Assembly: GCA_964407595.1 (NCBI GenBank) | Contig: CAYOWE010000001.1 | Span: 16,643 to 57,936 of the forward strand | Direction of reading: 5' to 3' | DNA length: 41,294 bases | Origin: an uncultured Candidatus Saccharibacteria bacterium | GTDB taxonomy: Bacteria > Patescibacteriota > Minisyncoccia > Portnoybacterales > UBA2143 | Shown: piece after piece, positions 2,789 through 30,385 of the stretch | Layout of the letters: every line of letters starts with the position of its first letter | How positions within the stretch are numbered: the first letter of the stretch is position 1 | Translations under genes and position numbers: made by a program | The notes under the pieces: generated by a model | The model's database searches: none | What the model was told of the DNA's origin: nothing | What the model saw: only the letters and a program-made list of their open reading frames with translations

Positions 2789-3262
2789 TTACTTGCCCAG
2801 TGATTTTTTAATTTTTTCCTGAACGCTTTTTGATAACTTAACACCTTTAAATTCTAATTTCTTTTTCATTTCACCTTCCCCTAAAATCTTTACTTGGGGA
2901 ATTCTGCCTCCTATCTTATCAATTAAACCCTTTTTCAACAAGCTTTGTTGAGAAACAATTTCTCCTGCTTTAAATTTTTTTTCGATATCTCTTAAATTAA
3001 GAACAAATGCCTTAACTCGGAATCTGGCCGATTTACTGCCTCGTCTTATTTTAACTTTGCCAACACTGCCTCTTTGCTTGGGGAATCGTTTGGATAAGGG
3101 AGTGTCGCCACCAGCAAAACCCTGTCGCGGTTTGCGACCAGCCCGTGATTTTTGTCCTTTAAGACCGCGACCAGAATAAGTCCCTTGTTTGCCGCCGCGA
3201 CCAACGCGTTTGCGAGATTTCTTTTTGTAGACAAGTTTTAGTTGATGTAATTGCATAGTCAA
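2789..3262 (-). CDS. rplO: 50S ribosomal protein L15
   Basis: The 157-aa ORF has the RVGRGGKQGTYSGRGLKGQKSRAG motif and sits after rpsE. Confidence 0.95.
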   Translation of the reverse strand: MTMQLHQLKLVYKKKSRKRVGRGGKQGTYSGRGLKGQKSRAGRKPRQGFAGGDTPLSKRFPKQRGSVGKVKIRRGSKSARFRVKAFVLNLRDIEKKFKAGEIVSQQSLLKKGLIDKIGGRIPQVKILGEGEMKKKLEFKGVKLSKSVQEKIKKSLGK

Positions 3263-12401: not shown

Positions 12402-12731
12402 TTACATTTTTATTTCAATGTCAACACCAGCTGGTAAATTTAACCCCATTAAGGCATCAATCACTTTGGCCGTGGGATTAATAATATCAATCAGCCGTTT
12501 ATGAACTCGCATTTCATATTGTTCCCGGGAATCCTTATGAACAAAAGTAGAACGATTAACCGTATACTTATGAATTTGGGTCGGCAAGGGAACTGGCCCG
12601 CGAATCTCTGCTCCATAACGTTCCACTATTTCAACAATCTGCTTGATTGACTGGTCAATTAGCTTATGATCGTAGGCCTGTATTTTAATGCGAATTCGCT
12701 GCTTAACTTCTTCCTCTTTTTTAGGTGCCAT
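12402..12731 (-). CDS. rpsJ: 30S ribosomal protein S10
   Basis: The 109-aa ORF contains [15 protein letters not shown]. Confidence 0.97.
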
Positions 12732-12814: not shown

Positions 12815-12856
12815 TTTTATCCAAATACCTGCCACCGGGCAGGTATTTGGATAAAA
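12815..12856. repeat. 19-bp perfect hairpin immediately after the tuf stop codon
   Basis: The sequence reads tttatccaaatacctgcc accg ggcaggtatttggataaa. No U-run follows on the transcribed strand. Confidence 0.8.
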
Positions 12857-12859
12857 TGT

Positions 12860-14059
12860 TTACTTAGATATTTTAGTCACTACTCCAGCGCCTACTGTCT
12901 TACCGCCTTCTCGAAGGGCAAATCGCTGTTTTATTTCTAAGGCAACTGGTGACATTAGCTTAATCTTTAAATTGACCGTGTCGCCCGGCATAACCATCTC
13001 GGTCCCTTCAGGTAAAGTTACCTCGCCAGTTACATCAGTTGTCCTGATATAAAATTGAGGCTTATATCCACTAAAGAAAGGGGTATGGCGACCACCTTCC
13101 TCTTTAGATAGGATATAGACTTCTCCCTCAAACTCCTGATGAGGGGTAACACTGCCCGGCTTAGCTAAAACTTGACCTCTTTCAAGATTCTCTCTTTTGA
13201 CTCCTCGCAATAAAATACCAGCATTATCGCCGGCTCTTCCTTCATCAAGCGATTTATTAAACATTTCAATACCGGTAATGACTGTTTTTTGAGTATCGTG
13301 CAAGCCAATTACTTCCACTTCTTCATTGAGTTTGACTATTCCTCTTTCAATTCGACCAGTAGCCACCGTGCCTCGCCCTTCAATAGAAAAAATATCCTCA
13401 ATAGGCATTAAGAATGGCTTATCCACTTCACGAGTCGGTTCGGGAATATTTTCATCAATTGACTTCATTAATTCCCTAATCGGCCCACATTTTGGACAAT
13501 CTTCTTTACCGCAGCCGCATTCCAAGGCCTGAAGAGCCGAACCTCGAATAATCGGAATTTTATCTCCTTCAAATTCATACTTACTCAAAAGCTCTCTAAT
13601 TTCCTGTTCAACTAAATCAACCAACTCTGAATCATCGGTCTGGTCTGTTTTATTCAAAAAGACAACTAAGGCAGGCAAACCAACCTGACGAGCTAAAAGA
13701 ATGTGTTCTCGGGTTTGCGGCATTGGTCCATCAGGCGCTGAAACGACTAAAATAGCTCCGTCCATTTGAGCCGCTCCGGTAATCATATTTTTAATGTAAT
13801 CAGCGTGACCGGGACAATCAATGTGAGCATAATGCCGTTTCTCTGTCTCGTATTCAACGTGAGCTACGGCAATGGTCAAGCCACGCGCTTTTTCTTCCGG
13901 AGCATTGTCAATATCATTAACCCCTTTATCTTGGGACTTAAAACCAGCCGCTTTTAAACATTTTAAAATAGCCGCGGTTAAAGTGGTTTTACCATGGTCA
14001 ACGTGACCAATGGTTCCGATATTAAGGTGTGGCTTTGTTCTTTCAAATTTCTCAGCCAT
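12860..14059 (-). CDS. tuf: Elongation factor Tu
   Basis: The sequence is EF-Tu-like from [27 protein letters not shown] (ATG at 14057-14059). The 18 extra N-terminal residues in the ORF track come from an upstream repeat. Confidence 0.97.
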
Positions 14060-14162
14060 ATTAACAGCAAATAATGAACAATGAACAGCGAACAATAAAA
14101 AGTCGCTATTCAAAATTCTCTATTCACATATATTAAATTTAGTTTTTAACAACTTTATATAA

Positions 14163-21679: not shown

Positions 21680-23395
21680 CTAAAAACTTTCCAAAAAATC
21701 CTTTAACGATTGACTGTTTAAAATGTTCTTTTTGGCGGCCCAGCCACGGCGGGCTTGGGCAATGCCTAATTCTATTAAAGATAAACCTACTTGAGAATGA
21801 GCATCGCTACTGATAACTAACTCAACTTCTGCTTTAATAGCTTTTCTAATATCAACATCCCTTAAGTCCAAACGTTCTGGTTGAGCATTAATCTCCAGAG
21901 CTGTCTTGGTTCTTTTAGCAGCTTTGAAGATTTGTTCAAAATCCAATTGATAGGCCTCTCTTTGAAAAATTCTGCGGCCAGTGGGATGACCAATAATATC
22001 TACATTAGGATTTTCCATGGCTCGAATAATCCGTTGAGTCATTTCTTTCTTAGGCATTTTGTATTTAGAATGAATCGCGGCCACCACGATATCCAATTTA
22101 GACAAAACTTCATCTCTAATATCTATTGCGCCGTTAGTCCTAATATTAGCTTCACATCCCTTAAGAATCTTGATTCCCCTTAAGCGACTGTTAATTTTAT
22201 CTATTTCTTCCATTTGACGCAAAAGTTTTTTTTCATCTAAACCATTAGCCACTTTTAAGTCCTTGGTATGGTCAGTAATAACTAAATATTGATAACCTAT
22301 TTTCTTAGCGGCCTTGGCCATTTCTTCTATGCTCTGCATTCCATCGCTCCAGTCAGTATGACAATGACAGTCACCTTTAATCTCGTCATAGCCAATTATT
22401 TTAGGCAATTGACCAGCCAGGGCTGCCTCAATTTCTCCCGTATTGTTTCTTAATTCCGGTTCAACATAGGGCAAGCCAATTGATTGATAAACTTTTTTTT
22501 CTGTTTGACCAGTTACTCTTTTTTTACCTCGCCAAACACCATATTCATTTAATTTTAATCCTTTTTGTTGAGCCAGCCGCCGAGTTAAAATATTATGGTC
22601 TTTGCTGCCTGTAAAATACTGGAGAGCCGCTCCAAAACTTTGTTTTTTAATTACCCGCAAGTCGCCATCAAAACCGCCTTTAAAACGAACAGATGATTTA
22701 GTTGACCCCTTGGCCCAAACCTTAACTATCTCAGGCATCTGGACAAAAAAATTCATTACTTTTTCCGGTTTTGGAGAAGTAACTAAAACATCAATATCAC
22801 CAATTGTTTCTTTCATGCGCCTGATTGAACCAGCCACGCTAACTTTTTCTACTTGAGGCAATTTATCCAGACGGCCAATAATTTGTCTGACTATTGGTAA
22901 AATCAAGCCAAGTAAAAAACGGCCTTTCCCCGTTTTGACAAAAGCAATGCTTTGTAAAATATTCTTTTCACTTTTTTCGCCAAAACCAGCCAATTTTTTT
23001 ATCTTGCCTGCCTGGGCAGCTTTTTCTAAATCATTTAAATTTCTAATCTTTAACTTTTTGTAAAGAATTTTTATCTTTCTTGGTCCTAAACTTTCAACTG
23101 ATGTCAATGAATCAAGGTCAACCGGAGATTCTTTTTTAAGTCTTTGATAGGCCTTTATTTGGCCGATTTTAATAAATTCTTCTATTTTTGAGGCAAGGCC
23201 CCGGCCAATCCCAGGAATCTTTTGTAAGGCCCCTAACCCACCCTCTTGATAAATCCCGCCCACATCTTTTTCCAAAGATTCTAAAACCCGAGCTGCCTTA
23301 CGGTAAGCTCGGGATTCAAAAAAAGTATCTTCCTCTTTCATCTCTAATAAATCAGCCATCTGGCCAAAAATTTGAGCTAACTCTAAATTTTTCAT
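21680..23395 (-). CDS. polX: DNA polymerase X family protein with C-terminal PHP domain
   Basis: The 571-aa ORF has an N-terminal HhH region, a GSIRR...GDIDVLV nucleotidyltransferase motif and an HCHTDWSDG PHP motif. Confidence 0.85.
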   Translation of the reverse strand: MKNLELAQIFGQMADLLEMKEEDTFFESRAYRKAARVLESLEKDVGGIYQEGGLGALQKIPGIGRGLASKIEEFIKIGQIKAYQRLKKESPVDLDSLTSVESLGPRKIKILYKKLKIRNLNDLEKAAQAGKIKKLAGFGEKSEKNILQSIAFVKTGKGRFLLGLILPIVRQIIGRLDKLPQVEKVSVAGSIRRMKETIGDIDVLVTSPKPEKVMNFFVQMPEIVKVWAKGSTKSSVRFKGGFDGDLRVIKKQSFGAALQYFTGSKDHNILTRRLAQQKGLKLNEYGVWRGKKRVTGQTEKKVYQSIGLPYVEPELRNNTGEIEAALAGQLPKIIGYDEIKGDCHCHTDWSDGMQSIEEMAKAAKKIGYQYLVITDHTKDLKVANGLDEKKLLRQMEEIDKINSRLRGIKILKGCEANIRTNGAIDIRDEVLSKLDIVVAAIHSKYKMPKKEMTQRIIRAMENPNVDIIGHPTGRRIFQREAYQLDFEQIFKAAKRTKTALEINAQPERLDLRDVDIRKAIKAEVELVISSDAHSQVGLSLIELGIAQARRGWAAKKNILNSQSLKDFLESF

Positions 23396-23404
23396 TCTTT
23401 TAAG

Positions 23405-23441
23405 GGACTGTATCTTAGGGACAGTCCCTGAGATACAGTCC
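23405..23441. repeat. Near-perfect 37-nt palindrome in the polX|6-TM gene spacer
   Basis: The arms are ggactgtatcttagggac and gtccctgagatacagtcc around a single central a. There is one G:T position. Confidence 0.85.
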
Positions 23442-23446
23442 TTCGG

Positions 23447-24088
23447 TCATTCTTTGGGATAAGGCGGACGAATACCTTTGCCTGGCAGTGTTCTGATTGT
23501 TTTTTTATCTTTAGGATATATCTGTTTATAAATAAAAAATGGCAGAAAGGCGCTGAACAAAATAAAGATTATTGCCAGAATAAAAAGAACATTAAAACCA
23601 AATCGATGTGCAATTATCCCTCCTAAGGCCCCGGCCATTCCTGCGCCAACGCCAATTAAAGCAGCCCTGATACTCCAATTGGATGCTTCTTTACCTTTGT
23701 CAATATGCCGAGTAAAGACAGCCGCATAAGCGGATACATTCATACCCATACCAATAGCGTAAAACACTTGTAGAAAATAAATATGCCAGGGCAAACGAGA
23801 AAAAATATAGGCAAAGACCACTGAAGCAGCTAAAATATTGCCAATAATAATAAAAAAAAGGTCATCTTTTTCTCCGTGATTTTTATCTAAATACCGACCA
23901 AAGGGAATAACCACTAAAGACATGACAATCCAATAAATAGCTGCGGCATAACCAACTACCTCCACATTGCCGCCTTGAATCCGTTCGGTTAAAAAAATAG
24001 CAAAGATAGGACTAATAAAACCAAACCCGCTAACCAAAGCCACATCAGAAAGAATTAAAATTTTAATCACTTTATTAATCAGTTTCAT
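23447..24088 (-). CDS. Six-TM membrane protein, MFS-like half-size
   Basis: The 213-aa hydrophobic ORF has an FGRYLDK-like loop. Confidence 0.45.
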   Translation of the reverse strand: MKLINKVIKILILSDVALVSGFGFISPIFAIFLTERIQGGNVEVVGYAAAIYWIVMSLVVIPFGRYLDKNHGEKDDLFFIIIGNILAASVVFAYIFSRLPWHIYFLQVFYAIGMGMNVSAYAAVFTRHIDKGKEASNWSIRAALIGVGAGMAGALGGIIAHRFGFNVLFILAIIFILFSAFLPFFIYKQIYPKDKKTIRTLPGKGIRPPYPKE

Positions 24089-24819: not shown

Positions 24820-26115
24820 TCAAAACAAACTGGCTTGTTTGGAAAAATTACCTCGTTCTTCGTCTTTAAAAATTTTAATCCGGCCATATTCACCATCATA
24901 ACCCGGTTCAATGCTGACTTTGCCCCGGCGAACCCGATTGACTCCTTCGGCAATTTCAGCGGAACTGGCCCGCTCTATTTGTTCTGGACTTATTTCTAAA
25001 AGTATTTTGAATTCTGAACCAAGGCGCTTAATCAAATTTTTATATTCCTCCCTAACCGCTTTACTAGCCACCCCCATTCCTTTGGCTTCAGCAATAATTT
25101 CTTCTAAAGGAATTGTCTTTCTAAAAGGAATAACTTGGACTGGGTTCTCTCCTTCTTTTCTATCAGCCAAATCATTAACCCTATGAAGCACGCCGATAGT
25201 CAAAGGCCGCTGGCATTGAGGACAGATATTCTTTATTTTTTTTGACTCTTGAGGAGTGAGACAAACCTGGCAATTACGATGTCCGTCATAATGATACCTA
25301 CCCTCTTCAGGAAAGAATTCAATTGTTTCTAAAAACTTTTGAGGGTCTCTATTTTTAATTGCCTCGACAACCCCAGCGTAACTCAAATCAGTATCAAAGA
25401 CATTAGCTTCCCGGCCGATTTTGCTGGGACTGTGGGCATCGGAATTGCTGACTAAAGTAATTTTGTCTAAAGATGAATTTAGCCAGCTCATCGGAGGATC
25501 GCTGGAAAGTCCTGTTTCTCCGGCATGAATATATTTTGAATATTCTTCAAAACATTCTTCCAAAGAGTCAAATCCTGAATTAGCTCCGAATAAACTAAAC
25601 CAAGGAGTATAGATATGAGCCGGAATAATAAAACAATCTTGAGAAGTATTTAAAACAATTTTAGCCAGTTCTTTGGCATCAAGGCCTAAAATAGGCCGAC
25701 CGTCAGATTTAAGATTGCCAATCCAGCCCAAACGGGTATTAATTTTCTCTACCGTTGAAAAGTCAGGCGCTAAAACAACAATGTGGATTTTCCGCGTCCG
25801 GTTGTTTTTTGAATAAATACAACTGATTTCGCTGCTTAATAAAAAACGTCCTCCTTCGTCTTGATGATTATTGGGCAACCAATCATTATTAACTAAAGAA
25901 GCGCGACTTTTCTTTTTTATCTTAAAAAGTCCTGGTTCAGCTGGCTCAAGCTTTTGTTTAAGTTCTTTTATCCAAAGCGGATGAGTAAAATCACCAGTTC
26001 CTAAAACTTTAATTCCCTTGATTTTAGCCCATTTATTTAAATTTTCCACATCCATATCCCGCGAGGTCGCCCGGGAATATTTGGAATGGATATGCAGATC
26101 AGCAATAAATCTCAT
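24820..26115 (-). CDS. PHP-domain protein with zinc finger, endonuclease Q-like
   Basis: The probable start is MRFIADLHIHSKYSRATS (ATG at 26113-26115). It has PHP His/Asp motifs and CPQCQRPL. The family assignment comes from my memory of EndoQ/TIGR00375-type sequences. Confidence 0.6.
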   Translation of the reverse strand: MRFIADLHIHSKYSRATSRDMDVENLNKWAKIKGIKVLGTGDFTHPLWIKELKQKLEPAEPGLFKIKKKSRASLVNNDWLPNNHQDEGGRFLLSSEISCIYSKNNRTRKIHIVVLAPDFSTVEKINTRLGWIGNLKSDGRPILGLDAKELAKIVLNTSQDCFIIPAHIYTPWFSLFGANSGFDSLEECFEEYSKYIHAGETGLSSDPPMSWLNSSLDKITLVSNSDAHSPSKIGREANVFDTDLSYAGVVEAIKNRDPQKFLETIEFFPEEGRYHYDGHRNCQVCLTPQESKKIKNICPQCQRPLTIGVLHRVNDLADRKEGENPVQVIPFRKTIPLEEIIAEAKGMGVASKAVREEYKNLIKRLGSEFKILLEISPEQIERASSAEIAEGVNRVRRGKVSIEPGYDGEYGRIKIFKDEERGNFSKQASLF

Positions 26116-26156
26116 AATTAACAGTGCCCCCAGAAGGAGCCGCCCCGTCATCCGAT

Positions 26157-27678: not shown

Positions 27679-28953
27679 TTAAAGATTAATGGACAGTCCC
27701 TTATAAGCTTCTCTAACCACTTGTCGGTCATCCCAAGGTATTTTCTTACCTCTAGTCACACACATCCAAGGTTCGCAACCCTTGCCCGTAATAATAACAA
27801 CATCGCTTTTTTGAGCTAATTTTAAAGCCCCTTGAATAGCTTGGCGCCGGTCAAGAATTCTCTCTGGCTGTTTTTGCTTTAAGCCAGCTGCCACCTCATC
27901 AATAATTGTCTGGGGATTTTCATCATAGGGATCTTCATTGGTAATAATAATCTTATCAAGATATTGTTCGGCGATTTTACCCAAGGCCGGCCGCTTCCAT
28001 CTGTCCCGGCCACCGCCAGTTGCTCCCAAGACGCCAATCAGCCGACCCTTAAAAACTTCTCTGATGGTTTGATAAACTTTTTCTAAAGCATCCGGCGTAT
28101 GAGCATAATCAACTATAACAGTAAATGGCTCCTTAATAACTATTTCCAACCGACCAGCCAGGCCCCTTACTTGTTCCAGGGCCAATTTGATTTTATTTAA
28201 AGAGATCTTTTCGGCTAAACCAACCGCGATAGCCGCTAAGGCATTAGAGATATTAAATCTGCCTAAAAGATTTAAATTAAAATTAGTCCCTTCAACTATA
28301 AAACTGATTCCATTTTGGCTAAACTGATAATTTTTGCCCTGGATTGATTGTTGAACCCTATCTAATGGTTGGTCAACTAGACTGTATCCCCATTTTTCTG
28401 CGGCGGGAAATTGTAAAAAATAATCACTATAGGGGTCATCTAAATTAATAATCATCTGGCCATTGGACCTAAGGGACTGGAAAAGCTTAGCCTTGGCTTT
28501 TTGGTAATTAGCAAATCCCCCATGGCTTTCCAAGTGTTCAGGGGTTAAATTAGTTAAAACCGCTGAATCAAAGCTAATAAACTTATGACGATATTGTTTA
28601 ATTCCTTCAGAAGTTACTTCTAAAACCGCATATTGACAGCCAGCTTGCACGGATTGTCGCAGAAATTTCTGCAATTTTAAACGACCGGGCATGGTCATTT
28701 TCAAATTATTCGGCCAAACTTGAGCTTTGATTTTAAATTGAATGGAAGAAAGAGCCGCTACCGAATAACCGGCCTCTTCCAAAATCCGGCTAATTAAAAA
28801 AACTACCGTGGATTTGCCATTAGTCCCGGTAACGCCAATCACTTTCAGTTTTTGTGCAGGAAAGCGATAAATAATTGCCCCTAAAAACCCCCAGCCAAAG
28901 TGATACCAACTAAAGATAAATTTAGGGATTATCTTTTTTAACAGATTTTTCAT
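27679..28953 (-). CDS. Mur ligase family protein (MurE-like)
   Basis: The 424-aa ORF contains GVTGTNGKST and DYAHTPDAL. Confidence 0.8.
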   Translation of the reverse strand: MKNLLKKIIPKFIFSWYHFGWGFLGAIIYRFPAQKLKVIGVTGTNGKSTVVFLISRILEEAGYSVAALSSIQFKIKAQVWPNNLKMTMPGRLKLQKFLRQSVQAGCQYAVLEVTSEGIKQYRHKFISFDSAVLTNLTPEHLESHGGFANYQKAKAKLFQSLRSNGQMIINLDDPYSDYFLQFPAAEKWGYSLVDQPLDRVQQSIQGKNYQFSQNGISFIVEGTNFNLNLLGRFNISNALAAIAVGLAEKISLNKIKLALEQVRGLAGRLEIVIKEPFTVIVDYAHTPDALEKVYQTIREVFKGRLIGVLGATGGGRDRWKRPALGKIAEQYLDKIIITNEDPYDENPQTIIDEVAAGLKQKQPERILDRRQAIQGALKLAQKSDVVIITGKGCEPWMCVTRGKKIPWDDRQVVREAYKGLSINL

Positions 28954-29395: not shown

Positions 29396-30385
29396 TCAGA
29401 CAATTTTTCTGGCTAAAAGATAAATCTGATACCAGAACGGCTGAAAAATTAAATCAAAGGCGCCTGGATAAGTGATTTCTTGACCATTAAATCCTTTTTT
29501 AAAACGGGTTACCCCGGGCCATTTTTTTTCGTCAATACCCCAAAAATCATAATATTTCAAGCCCTGACTTTTGGCTTGGCCAATGGCTCGCCACTGCAAA
29601 AAATGAGGAGCCATCAGCTGACGGAAGTTATAATCAGAAGCGCCGTGTAAATAAGTGGCTGTTTGACCAAAAAAACAAACCAGATTAGCCGCCACAATCT
29701 GGTTTTGATATTTAGCCAAAAATAGTTTAATCATCCCTTCTTGACCTAAAACCTCCAACATTTTTTGATAATATTCCTTAGGGTGAAGATAAAATTTATC
29801 CCGTTTAGCTGTTTGTTCTAATAAATCTAAAAAGGTATCTGCGGCTCCATTATCATTCGCTGGCTCAATTATTACTCCTTTGTGTTGAGCCAATCTAATG
29901 TTATATCTGGTTTTTTGATGCAGCTGGCTTAACAATTCTTTCTCTGATTTAGTGATATCTAAAATTAATGTCTTGGCTGGTTGGATTTGTTTGCTTGACC
30001 GAAACGAGGACAATCCTTCAGAGACAGTCCTTGGGACAAGGACTGTCTCTGAAGGACCCTCCCTGTCGTCCTTGCTATCTGGCTCAATTTTGAAAAAAAT
30101 ACTCTTCTCTTTTTTAGCTATTTTTTTTACTTCAGCTAAAAAATTTTGGAATCCGTCAGCCGAGATTTGACCAACTGGCCCGCGCGGACAATACAAATAA
30201 TTTTTTCCCAAGGGTAAATTATGTTTTATGACCAAAGCTTTTAATCCAGACATTTCCAGCCGCCAGATTCTTCGGCCTAATGACTCTTGGAATTCTCCCC
30301 ATGACCAAGATTGTAAAAAAGAACCATTGTTGGCAATAACAAATTGGTCCCATTCTTCCTTTTGATTAGCTGAAACTGTGCTCAT
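29396..30385 (-). CDS. FemAB-family peptidoglycan branch aminoacyltransferase
   Basis: The 329-aa ORF contains FLQSWSWGEF, HQKTRYNIR and ATYLHGAS. It lies next to the Mur ligase gene. Confidence 0.75.
   Translation of the reverse strand: MSTVSANQKEEWDQFVIANNGSFLQSWSWGEFQESLGRRIWRLEMSGLKALVIKHNLPLGKNYLYCPRGPVGQISADGFQNFLAEVKKIAKKEKSIFFKIEPDSKDDREGPSETVLVPRTVSEGLSSFRSSKQIQPAKTLILDITKSEKELLSQLHQKTRYNIRLAQHKGVIIEPANDNGAADTFLDLLEQTAKRDKFYLHPKEYYQKMLEVLGQEGMIKLFLAKYQNQIVAANLVCFFGQTATYLHGASDYNFRQLMAPHFLQWRAIGQAKSQGLKYYDFWGIDEKKWPGVTRFKKGFNGQEITYPGAFDLIFQPFWYQIYLLARKIV
30014..30056. repeat. Perfect 43-nt palindrome inside the FemAB-family CDS
   Basis: The 20-bp arms are tccttcagagacagtccttg / caaggactgtctctgaagga around the loop gga. 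Confidence 0.9.

What the first reader, a model, noticed from the sequence alone, without database searches (positions are those of the whole stretch)
30014..30056. Perfect 43-nt palindrome translated in frame inside the FemAB-family gene
The sequence tccttcagagacagtccttg gga caaggactgtctctgaagga forms a perfect 20-bp stem with a 3-nt loop inside the CDS 29396..30385. The reading frame stays open through it, giving ...GPSETVLVPRTVSEGLSS.... Because it is a palindrome, the opposite strand encodes almost the same peptide, PSETVLGTRTVSEGPS (see the + strand ORF 29952..30170). It lies in what appears to be a variable linker (DSKDDREGPSETVLVPRTVSEGLSSFRSS) before the conserved QPAKTLILD...HQKTRYNIR block. 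One arm contains AGAGACAGTCC, which differs by one base from the AGATACAGTCC arm of the intergenic palindrome at 23405-23441. A perfect palindrome this long inside a gene is very unlikely by chance. It suggests a recently inserted palindromic element, a recombination or protein-binding site, or an mRNA structure that pauses ribosomes.
Basis: seen in the sequence. Interest (0 to 1): 0.62.

Follow-up and report, generated by a model that had tools for sequence, protein, structure and literature searches.

The report
Selfish palindromic repeat inside FemX gene
The perfect palindrome is real: it is an old, in-frame copy of a previously undescribed 60-base hairpin repeat that is scattered through the tiny genomes of CPR (Patescibacteria) bacteria, here tolerated in a floppy surface loop of a cell-wall enzyme, much like the palindromic elements found inside Rickettsia genes.

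Summary
Bases 30014-30056 are a perfect 20+3+20 palindrome, with 9e-7 expected by chance, and four independent metagenome assemblies contain it. It is in frame in a FemX/FemAB gene.

It is the core of a 61-nt element (30005-65) belonging to a dispersed repeat family. The family architecture is X-Y-X:
- X = GGGACWGTCCC
- Y = AGATACAGTCCTTG-loop-CAAGGACTGTATCT

The intergenic palindrome at 23405-41 belongs to the same family in a permuted form (halfY-X-halfY). That type runs at about 30 copies per genome in the source samples.

Family copies occur in many low-GC CPR contigs. About 70% are intergenic. About 30% are in frame inside unrelated housekeeping genes (RpoC, LepA, GltX, KsgA, MiaA, YraN, glycosyltransferases), in all three frames.

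The arms covary strongly: 98% of cells are paired and 11 of 29 pairs show double changes.

FemX orthologues at 63-88% identity carry the element at the same codon, with compensatory and partly non-synonymous changes. Some copies have decayed, and other orthologues lack it or carry unrelated palindromes at that site. The insertion is therefore old, not recent.

The encoded 20 residues are the only internal low-confidence stretch of the AF2 model.

Best reading: an RPE/REP-like selfish hairpin repeat in a permissive loop. How it moves, and why the arms stay paired, are not known.

The parts
30014..30056 (.). Perfect 20+3+20 palindrome. It is the inner (Y) module of the element: TCCTTCAGAGACAGTCCTTG gga CAAGGACTGTCTCTGAAGGA.
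   Evidence: Present unchanged in 4 independent runs.
30005..30065 (-). Full-length 61-nt family copy (X-Y-X) whose outer X modules have decayed (AGGGAGGGTCC / GGATTGTCCTC in gene orientation). It encodes residues 108-127 (REGPSETVLVPRTVSEGLSS) of the FemX-like protein.
   Evidence: The covariance model R1 scores 68.9 bits (E 4e-15) on the sense strand and 59.5 bits on the antisense strand. Aligned with orthologous and dispersed copies. AF2 pLDDT is below 50 for residues 106-124.
29396..30385 (-). Host gene: FemX/FemAB-family aminoacyl-tRNA-dependent peptidoglycan bridge transferase, 329 aa, in a RuvA-FemX-MurE-Wzy_C cluster.
   Evidence: Pfam. AF2 model with pLDDT 85.9 and Foldseek hits to FemX 6snr/1ne9/4ii9, TM 0.73-0.79. 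Profile hits to FemX chains. Synteny.
23402..23444 (.). Second family copy in permuted arrangement (halfY-X-halfY): GGACTGTATCTTAGGGAC a GTCCCTGAGATACAGTCC. It fills the 51-nt spacer between the MFS-like gene (23447..24088-) and the PolX gene (21680..23395-).
   Evidence: R1 scores 36.2 bits, E 8e-7. The orthologous spacer in L148 is 10 nt and has no element. About 30-fold excess depth and 23-32 contigs per run in the source metagenomes.

Best explanation
The palindrome is the surviving core of one copy of a dispersed, non-autonomous palindromic repeat family of CPR/Patescibacteria genomes.

Family anatomy:
- The canonical element is about 59-61 nt: CAGGGACWGTCCC-TNAGAT-ACAGTCCTTG-(loop)-CAAGGACTGT-ATCTNA-GGGACWGTCCCTG.
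- Each arm is two related 14-nt units.
- Because both the X and Y modules are self-complementary, the same units also occur in a permuted form (halfY-X-halfY), as at 23405-41.

Shown:
- The family is multi-copy, at about 30 copies per genome for the 23405 type in the source samples.
- It is mostly intergenic, but roughly a third of copies lie in frame and free of stop codons inside unrelated housekeeping genes, in any of three reading frames.
- The arms covary, also at positions whose sequence is free.
- The FemX copy sits at the same codon in orthologues down to about 63% identity. It has evolved there by paired changes that alter the amino acids, and it has decayed in some lineages.
- The encoded 20 residues are the one internal segment of the FemX model predicted with low confidence.
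- Unrelated palindromic repeats and a microsatellite occupy the same linker in other lineages.

Inferred:
- An ancestor of this clade acquired the element in a loop that tolerates extra residues. It persists because it is in frame and harmless to the enzyme, not because FemX needs it.
- Arm complementarity is kept by the DNA or RNA hairpin itself. Either the hairpin is what an unidentified mobilising or host protein recognises, or intrastrand template switching on the hairpin copies a change from one arm to the other.
- The peptide is a by-product.
For: Family and architecture:
- Orthologous FemX linkers carry perfect 28-31-bp stems (L004, L007, L001, L145, L146).
- One MAG has at least 9 copies, 4 of them inside long ORFs.
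- Three identical 53-nt copies lie in consecutive spacers of L126.

Copy number: the summed depth over 23405-41 is 1031, 1495 and 388 against flank depths of 33, 52 and 12.8 in three runs, a constant ratio of about 30. Each run has 23-32 contigs with different flanks.

Coding context:
- 21 of 68 copies lie inside long ORFs, against 70% of random windows.
- Hosts are LepA, a ComF-like PRTase, GT4 glycosyltransferases, GltX, KsgA, RpoC, MiaA, YraN and FemAB.
- Three peptide frames are used.

Covariation: 98.3% of cells are paired. 11 of 29 pairs show double changes, in 56 cells. The score is 0.229 against 0.072 for shuffles (0 of 500 as high), and slid controls reach at most 0.051.

Old age at this site: same position and phase in proteins of 63-88% identity. 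The stepwise paired changes CCCTTAGAT/ATCTAAGGG -> CCTTCAGAT/ATCTGAAGG -> CCTTCAGAG/CTCTGAAGG change L->S, D->E and K->E. The left arm is lost in L002, L005 has an internal deletion, and L006 has no element. The window copy is unique at >=80% identity.

Permissive loop: pLDDT is below 50 only at residues 1-3 and 106-124. Different palindromes occupy the same linker in L148 and L149, and (TTTTCAA)4 does so in L006.
Against: - No transposase or other candidate mobilising gene was found among 150 neighbouring ORFs. Only the 25 commonest families are shown, and such a gene could be single-copy elsewhere.
- No target-site duplication was seen.
- No empty site was found in a very close relative, so movement itself is not demonstrated.
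- The near-perfect stems of most copies, including old intragenic ones, are more than simple neutral decay predicts, so some active constraint exists whose nature is unknown.
- Three unrelated palindromes at the same FemX linker could also mean that a hairpin is favoured there.
- In the window copy the decayed outer stem keeps G.U pairs on the mRNA strand (68.9 against 59.5 bits). This hints weakly at RNA-level pairing.
Confidence: 0.72

Rival explanations
1. The hairpin is a functional mRNA structure selected in FemX. It might be a translational pause before the strand that leads into the second domain, or an RNA processing or stability signal. On this view different CPR lineages recruited different palindromes to the same place for that purpose.
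For: - Arm covariation includes non-synonymous compensatory changes.
- The predicted sense-strand hairpin is very stable, at -52 kcal/mol.
- Three unrelated palindromic sequences lie at the same linker in L148, L149 and this clade.
- The mismatches of the decayed outer stem are G.U on the sense strand.
Against: - Many orthologues have no hairpin at all at this site (P0012, P0016, P0018, P0020, P0099 and others; L006 folds to 0 kcal/mol).
- The same element is mostly intergenic and occurs in unrelated genes in three frames.
- Across in-gene copies the mismatches are not biased towards sense-strand G.U: 2 G.U-type, 5 A.C-type and 5 other.
- No RNA data were available.
Confidence: 0.1
2. The element is a double-stranded DNA binding site, or an array of sites, for a dimeric CPR protein such as a nucleoid-associated or regulatory protein, or a recombinase. 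That protein would recognise GGGAC-N-GTCCC and GGACTGT/ACAGTCC half-sites. On this view intragenic copies are tolerated bystanders of a genome-wide site.
For: - The modules are strongly conserved and dyad-symmetric (GGGACWGTCCC, ACAGTCC), with fixed spacing between units of about 14-15 nt, across distant lineages.
- X-module dyads also form arrays in high-GC, non-CPR contigs.
Against: - Positions with no sequence conservation still covary between the arms. Column pair 15/47 is CG 9, AU 8, UA 7, GC 1. Independent half-site recognition does not require this.
- No candidate protein was identified.
- The density of about 1 copy per 15-30 kb is low for a nucleoid or uptake signal.
Confidence: 0.1
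3. The palindrome is an assembly or foldback artefact, or a chance event.
For: None was found. Palindromes are a known failure mode of some library preparations.
Against: - The sequence is identical in contigs of four independent runs at 7-52x depth, with no joints.
- Homologous palindromes occur at the same codon in independently assembled orthologues from JGI, ENA, NCBI and Logan.
- The chance expectation is 8.8e-7.
Confidence: 0.01
4. The peptide is the selected object, for example a small beta-hairpin or interaction motif (RDxPxxTVLxxRTVxxGxSL) added to many proteins. On this view the DNA palindrome is a by-product of a symmetric peptide.
For: The frame-a peptide recurs with similar sequence in FemX, GltX, KsgA, a GT4 glycosyltransferase and others.
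Against: - The same DNA is read in two other frames in other hosts, giving unrelated peptides: GTVPxIQSLxQGLYxRDSP in MiaA and QGQSLGYSPCFKDCIRGTVP in a GT4 glycosyltransferase.
- Most copies are intergenic.
- Compensatory changes alter residues freely.
- AF2 gives the segment pLDDT below 50.
Confidence: 0.05

Closest known systems
Rickettsia palindromic elements (RPEs; Ogata et al. 2000, as summarised in PMC10969869)
   Same: Both are dispersed palindromic repeats in a small, reduced genome. In both, a large fraction of copies is inserted in frame into unrelated housekeeping genes, adding a short peptide at positions compatible with the protein fold. In both, no transposase is encoded and copies are inherited and decay in orthologues.
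   Different: There is no relationship of lineage (CPR against Alphaproteobacteria) or, as far as can be seen, of sequence. The element here is about 60 nt rather than 100-150 bp. It is modular (X and Y palindromes, two permuted arrangements). The stems are far more perfect, with strong arm covariation. It is read in three frames rather than giving one conserved peptide per family.
REP / REPIN elements mobilised by RAYT (Y1) transposases
   Same: Both are short, hairpin-forming repeats that are mostly extragenic and sit in operon spacers. In both, inverted pairs of units form a longer hairpin, copy number is in the tens to hundreds, and sequence and pairing are both conserved.
   Different: There is no GTAG-type 5' tetranucleotide. 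No RAYT gene was found near 150 neighbouring ORFs. A third of the copies here are intragenic and in frame, which is unusual for REPs.
MITEs with intragenic in-frame copies (ERIC, Correia, BOX; PMC10969869)
   Same: Both are small non-autonomous inverted-repeat elements that can fuse in frame with host ORFs.
   Different: No target-site duplication and no parent IS with matching ends were found. The whole element is a single hairpin rather than terminal inverted repeats flanking a core.
[quoted passage not shown]
   Same: Both are coding DNA with dyad symmetry, so both strands encode similar peptides.
   Different: PARCELs are tandem 25-residue amphipathic domains in dedicated surface proteins. 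Here single copies are scattered in unrelated enzymes and in spacers.
Quasipalindrome template-switch correction (established mutational mechanism in E. coli; from my own knowledge)
   Same: It would explain how a change in one arm is copied to the other without any selection, giving the perfect stems and paired changes seen here.
   Different: It is a mechanism, not an element family. It was not tested here.

Membership tests
FemAB/FemX family (host gene) | Sequence match to Pfam FemAB, and a tandem GNAT-like fold as in FemX. | tested here: met
   PF02388 E 2.6e-48 and PF13480 E 5.7e-18. AF2 pLDDT 85.9. Foldseek hits to 6snr, 1ne9 and 4ii9, TM 0.73-0.79. Profile hits to FemX chains.
RPE-like intragenic palindromic repeats | Dispersed multi-copy repeat within one genome. 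| tested here: met
   At least 9 copies in one MAG. Up to 4-5 copies per contig. About 30-fold depth excess in three runs.
RPE-like intragenic palindromic repeats | In-frame, stop-free insertion in unrelated protein-coding genes. | tested here: met
   21 of 68 copies are inside long ORFs. Hosts are RpoC, LepA, GltX, KsgA, MiaA, YraN, GT4, a ComF-like protein and FemAB.
RPE-like intragenic palindromic repeats | Insertion at a site compatible with the host fold (surface or loop). | tested here: met
   Tested for FemX only. The inserted residues are the sole internal stretch with pLDDT below 50, in a length-variable linker. Other hosts were not modelled.
RPE-like intragenic palindromic repeats | Homology to a described RPE family: Rickettsia, about 100-150 bp, conserved peptide per family. 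| tested here: not met
   The length is 59-61 nt, the host is CPR, and three peptide frames are used. No sequence comparison with RPEs was run. It works like an RPE but is not a member of the RPE families.
REP/REPIN-RAYT | An associated RAYT (Y1 transposase) gene, typically flanked by REPs. | tested here: inconclusive
   No transposase family was among the 25 commonest Pfam families of 150 neighbouring ORFs. No whole genomes were available.
REP/REPIN-RAYT | A conserved 5' GTAG-type tetranucleotide next to an imperfect hairpin. | tested here: not met
   The consensus starts CAGGGAC and ends GTCCCTG, with no GTAG.
MITE | Target-site duplication and a parent IS with matching terminal repeats. | tested here: inconclusive
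   No duplication is visible in the flanks of about 25 full copies. The inverted repeats containing a similar motif in L086, L088 and L111 bracket DNA without a transposase ORF.
Intrinsic terminator | A GC-rich hairpin followed directly by a U tract. | tested here: not met
   The sense strand continues ...GGAUUGUCCUCGUUUCGG and the antisense strand ...GGACCCUCCCUG. Neither has a U run. The copy is inside a CDS.
Known RNA families (Rfam 15) | A match at or near a family's gathering score. | tested here: not met
   The window gave only tRNAs. At E<=10 the site matched only generic miRNA-precursor hairpins, far below threshold.
CRISPR array | Regularly spaced direct repeats with unique spacers. 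| tested here: not met
   The copies in the window are single and 6.6 kb apart, and the arms are inverted rather than direct.

The most novel reading that the evidence does not exclude
The GGGACWGTCCC/ACAGTCC hairpin is not junk. It would be a CPR-wide element that is actively recognised and kept perfectly paired by an unknown protein, either a hairpin-specific transposase or nuclease or a host factor. Its repeated colonisation of the same loops of essential enzymes (FemX, MiaA, YraN, GT4) would then be a regular way in which these minimal genomes gain new surface loops or place strong translational pauses at domain boundaries. X-module dyad arrays in high-GC contigs would then point to a much wider, cross-phylum system.
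Probability: 0.12. Interest if true: 0.75.

Novelty: new member of a known kind. Interest (0 to 1): 0.5.

Why it matters
CPR/Patescibacteria genomes are among the smallest and most streamlined known, yet they carry tens of copies of a 60-nt hairpin repeat that has entered essential genes (RNA polymerase beta', LepA, GltX, KsgA, MiaA, FemX) without breaking them. This would be a second, independent case of the Rickettsia RPE phenomenon in a very different reduced-genome lineage.

Practical consequences:
- These repeats break assemblies. Several contigs end in them.
- They create spurious antisense ORFs and odd 'GTVP/GQSL/RDSP' peptides.
- They inflate linker variability in protein alignments.

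The very clean arm covariation, with non-synonymous compensatory changes inside genes, offers a natural system for studying how hairpin DNA is kept perfect. I found no description of this family in the searchable literature or in Rfam.

Tried and rejected
- RNA evidence: no RNA-seq run holding the gene could be listed, so transcript-level effects were not tested.
- Rfam at gathering score and at E<=10 gave only tRNAs and generic hairpin noise.
- Sense-strand G.U bias in in-gene copies as a test for mRNA pairing gave no signal: 2 against 5 against 5, and the counts are too small.
- Neighbour-gene enrichment for a transposase or RAYT found none among the top 25 families.
- A profile of the three element-encoded peptides searched against 5.8 billion proteins gave only 2 hits at E<=1 among 656 word-sharing candidates. 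A 20-residue match cannot reach significance in that database, and my E-value ceiling was too low. Host families were instead identified from the DNA loci.
The window's own copies were used instead.
- The IS-like inverted repeats with a similar motif in L086, L088 and L111 contain no transposase ORF and look unrelated.
- Literature searches for the motifs, and for non-CRISPR palindromic repeats in CPR, found nothing relevant.
- DNA-uptake-sequence and terminator readings were considered and set aside. The density is too low for an uptake sequence, and there is no U tract for a terminator.
- Presence or absence of the 23405 copy could only be compared with a distant relative (L148).

Full report
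**Observation.**
Window bases 30014-30033 and 30037-30056 are perfectly complementary 20-nt arms separated by 3 nt. This is the longest perfect hairpin in the window. Thirty dinucleotide-preserving shuffles gave longest stems of 8-12 bp, and the expected number of perfect stems of 20 bp or more is 8.8e-7.

The site lies in ORF 29396..30385(-), 329 aa. That ORF hits Pfam FemAB and Acetyltransf_6, and its model folds like FemX (AF2 mean pLDDT 85.9; Foldseek to 6snr, 1ne9 and 4ii9 with TM 0.73-0.79).

Contigs from four independent lake-water metagenome runs cover the site at 7-52x depth with no differences, indels or joints. The palindrome is real DNA.

**What it is.**
An alignment of 33 homologues shows that the palindrome-encoded residues sit in a length-variable linker between the conserved FFKIEP and IQPxKT blocks. 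I fetched the DNA of syntenic orthologues in the RuvA-FemX-MurE-Wzy_C cluster.

- L004 and L007 carry, at the same codon, a perfect 28+3+28 palindrome: AGGGACTGTCCCTTAGATACAGTCCTTG-AAG-CAAGGACTGTATCTAAGGGACAGTCCCT.
- L001, L145 and L146 carry equally long perfect stems with different sequences.
- L008 has one mismatch.
- L147 has arms of two different variants.
- L002/L003 have lost the left arm.
- L005 has an internal deletion.
- L006 has no element, but a (TTTTCAA)4 microsatellite instead.

The window's 43-nt palindrome is therefore the inner part of a 61-nt element (30005-30065) whose outer modules have decayed (AGGGAGGGTCC and GGATTGTCCTC).

The element is modular. X is GGGACWGTCCC. Y is AGATACAGTCCTTG-loop-CAAGGACTGTATCT. 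Full copies are X-Y-X.

A covariance model built from 25 copies finds exactly these two sites in the window: 68.9/59.5 bits and 36.2/32.9 bits.

**A dispersed family.**
An exact-pattern scan of species-representative genomes found at least 9 full copies on different contigs of one MAG labelled Ca. Saccharibacteria, 4 of them inside long ORFs.

The low-GC loci (0.35-0.42, CPR-like) carry 78 copy clusters, with up to 4-5 per contig. Three identical 53-nt copies lie in consecutive spacers of one operon in L126.

In the window's own source samples, contigs matching 23405-41 at >=80% identity number 23-32 per run and have different flanks. The summed depth over the element is 1031, 1495 and 388, against flank depths of 33, 52 and 12.8. 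This ratio of about 30 is constant across samples, so I read it as about 30 copies in this genome.

The FemX copy, in contrast, is single-copy at >=80% identity.

**Coding context.**
Of 68 copies with enough context, 21 (31%) lie inside long ORFs, in frame and without stop codons, against 70% of random windows in the same loci. The family thus prefers spacers but is often intragenic.

Hosts include RNA polymerase beta', LepA, glutamyl-tRNA synthetase, KsgA, MiaA, YraN/UPF0102, a ComF-like phosphoribosyltransferase, three GT4 glycosyltransferases (one with three insertions) and FemAB.

Three reading frames are used, giving unrelated peptides:
- RDxPxxTVLxxRTVxxGxSL
- GTVPxIQSLxQGLYxRDSP
- QGQSLGYSPCFKDCIRGTVP

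The conserved object is therefore the nucleic acid, not the peptide.

In the FemX model the only internal stretch with pLDDT below 50 is residues 106-124, and the palindrome encodes residues 110-124.

**Pairing is constrained.**
On 25 distinct copies, 98.3% of cells form standard pairs. Eleven of 29 pairs show changes on both sides, in 56 cells. The covariation score is 0.229 against 0.072 for shuffles (0 of 500 as high), and slid controls reach at most 0.051. The freely varying column pair 15/47 takes all four Watson-Crick types.

Part of this alignment was ascertained with a pattern that fixes the X and half-Y cores. The covarying positions were unconstrained N's, or came from orthologues found through the protein.

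Within the FemX lineage the arms changed in step: CCCTTAGAT/ATCTAAGGG -> CCTTCAGAT/ATCTGAAGG -> CCTTCAGAG/CTCTGAAGG. These steps altered L->S, D->E and K->E. Pairing therefore outranks the protein sequence.

Mismatches in in-gene copies show no excess of sense-strand G.U: 2 G.U-type, 5 A.C-type and 5 other. There is thus no evidence that mRNA is the level at which pairing matters, although the window copy itself scores better on the sense strand.

**Age and permissiveness.**
Orthologues of 63-88% identity carry the element in the same position and phase. Together with its decay in the window, L002 and L005, and its uniqueness in the source metagenomes, this makes it an old, vertically inherited insertion rather than a recent one.

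Other CPR lineages have different palindromes in the same linker. L148 has CAAGGTCAGACCTTTTTGAAAAAGGTCTGACCTTT. L149 has a ~95-nt GTCATTCTGAG...CTCAGAATGAC element that recurs elsewhere on its contig. Many lineages have none.

The 23405 copy is an insertion relative to L148, where the MFS-PolX spacer is 10 nt.

**Mechanism.**
Shown: the sequence is a multi-copy hairpin repeat that is mostly extragenic, is frequently fused in frame into unrelated genes, and has covarying arms. Here it occupies a disordered, indel-tolerant loop.

Inferred: it is a selfish or at least gene-indifferent element that spread by an unknown route, and it is retained in FemX because it does no harm. The arms stay complementary either because the hairpin is the recognised form or because template switching on the hairpin copies changes between the arms.

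No transposase was found among 150 neighbouring ORFs. No target duplication was seen, and no close empty site was available. Mobility is therefore inferred from copy number, from identical copies at different loci, and from the L148 empty spacer.

**Comparison with known systems.**
It works like the Rickettsia palindromic elements, which are dispersed palindromic repeats inserted in frame in unrelated genes of a reduced genome (PMC10969869). It also resembles REP/REPIN elements in its spacer copies.

It is not a member of either:
- The lineage and the length (about 60 nt) differ.
- The architecture is modular and permutable.
- There is no GTAG tetranucleotide, and no RAYT gene was found.
- Three frames are used.

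PARCELs (PMC2996958) share only the idea of dyad-symmetric coding DNA.

Rfam has no matching family. Full-text searches for the motifs, or for such repeats in CPR, found nothing.

**Verdict.**
I rate it a new member of a known kind (RPE/REP-like palindromic repeats) in a new lineage. It is of moderate interest for CPR genome biology and annotation.

Noticed in passing
window 27691-27699: An X-module-like GGACTGTCC forms the last codons of MurE (...YKGLSINL*). It is conserved with small changes in the orthologues L001 and L002 (GGGGATTGTCCCTTAATC, AATGGACTGTCCCTTAATC). It may be the remnant of a family copy at the 3' end of the gene.
   Followed up: partly
window 12815-12856: A perfect 19+4+19 palindrome (TTTTATCCAAATACCTGCC / GGCAGGTATTTGGATAAAA) lies in the spacer between EF-Tu (12860..14113-) and ribosomal protein S10 (12402..12731-). 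Its sequence is unrelated to the family. It is flanked by T and A runs and looks like a terminator or attenuator.
   Followed up: no
L148 10292-10322; L149 1617-1724 and 4540-4670; L006 FemAB linker: Unrelated palindromic repeats occupy the same FemX linker in other CPR lineages: AGGTCAGACC...GGTCTGACCT in L148 and a ~95-nt GTCATTCTGAG...CTCAGAATGAC element in L149. The L149 element recurs elsewhere on its contig. L006 has a (TTTTCAA)4 microsatellite encoding NFQFSIFNFQ at that site.
   Followed up: partly
L099 (GT4 glycosyltransferase, element at 810-866) and L063 (LepA, 2058-2082 and 3030-3066): Single proteins carry several element-derived peptides. The L099 glycosyltransferase has three (GTVPEGQSFREGLSLRNSP, QGLSLKDNLVSRTVPRKQSL, QGQSLGYSPCFKDCIRGTVP). 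The L063 LepA has two, plus a segment from another repeat family (VIASERSERGNLVEDHGIASS...).
   Followed up: no
L104, L049, L114, L059, L091, L072, L136 (GC 0.55-0.63): High-GC metagenome contigs carry arrays of GGGGACWGTCCC-N3-4-GGGACWGTCCCC dyads at spacings of about 70-130 nt. The X module is thus the building block of repeat families outside CPR as well. Their hosts and nature were not examined.
   Followed up: no
L086 356-2942, L088 7250-9207, L111 4852-6315: Inverted terminal repeats of about 60 nt, containing GGGACAGTCCCCAACCCACAGTCCC, bracket 1.4-2.6 kb of ORF-poor DNA with no transposase ORF. This is possibly an unrelated (eukaryotic?) TIR element picked up by the pattern.
   Followed up: partly
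L147 425-485: This FemX copy has a left arm of the L004 type (TTAGATACAGTCC) and a right arm of the L146 type (GGACTGTCCCTAA). That gives three mismatches and looks like recombination or conversion between element variants.
   Followed up: no
L002 14028-16877 / L003 13728-16577 versus window 24820-26151: The orthologue of the window's 443-aa protein is 949 aa in L002 and L003, where it carries Pfam MJ0043_C and contains an intein with a LAGLIDADG endonuclease. The window, L005, L006 and L148 versions lack the intein.
   Followed up: no
L008 1-40; L139 1-70; L141 1-60; L115 1-60: Several contigs begin or end inside a family copy. In the source runs many 39-55-nt unitigs consist of the repeat alone. 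The family therefore breaks short-read assemblies of these genomes.
   Followed up: partly
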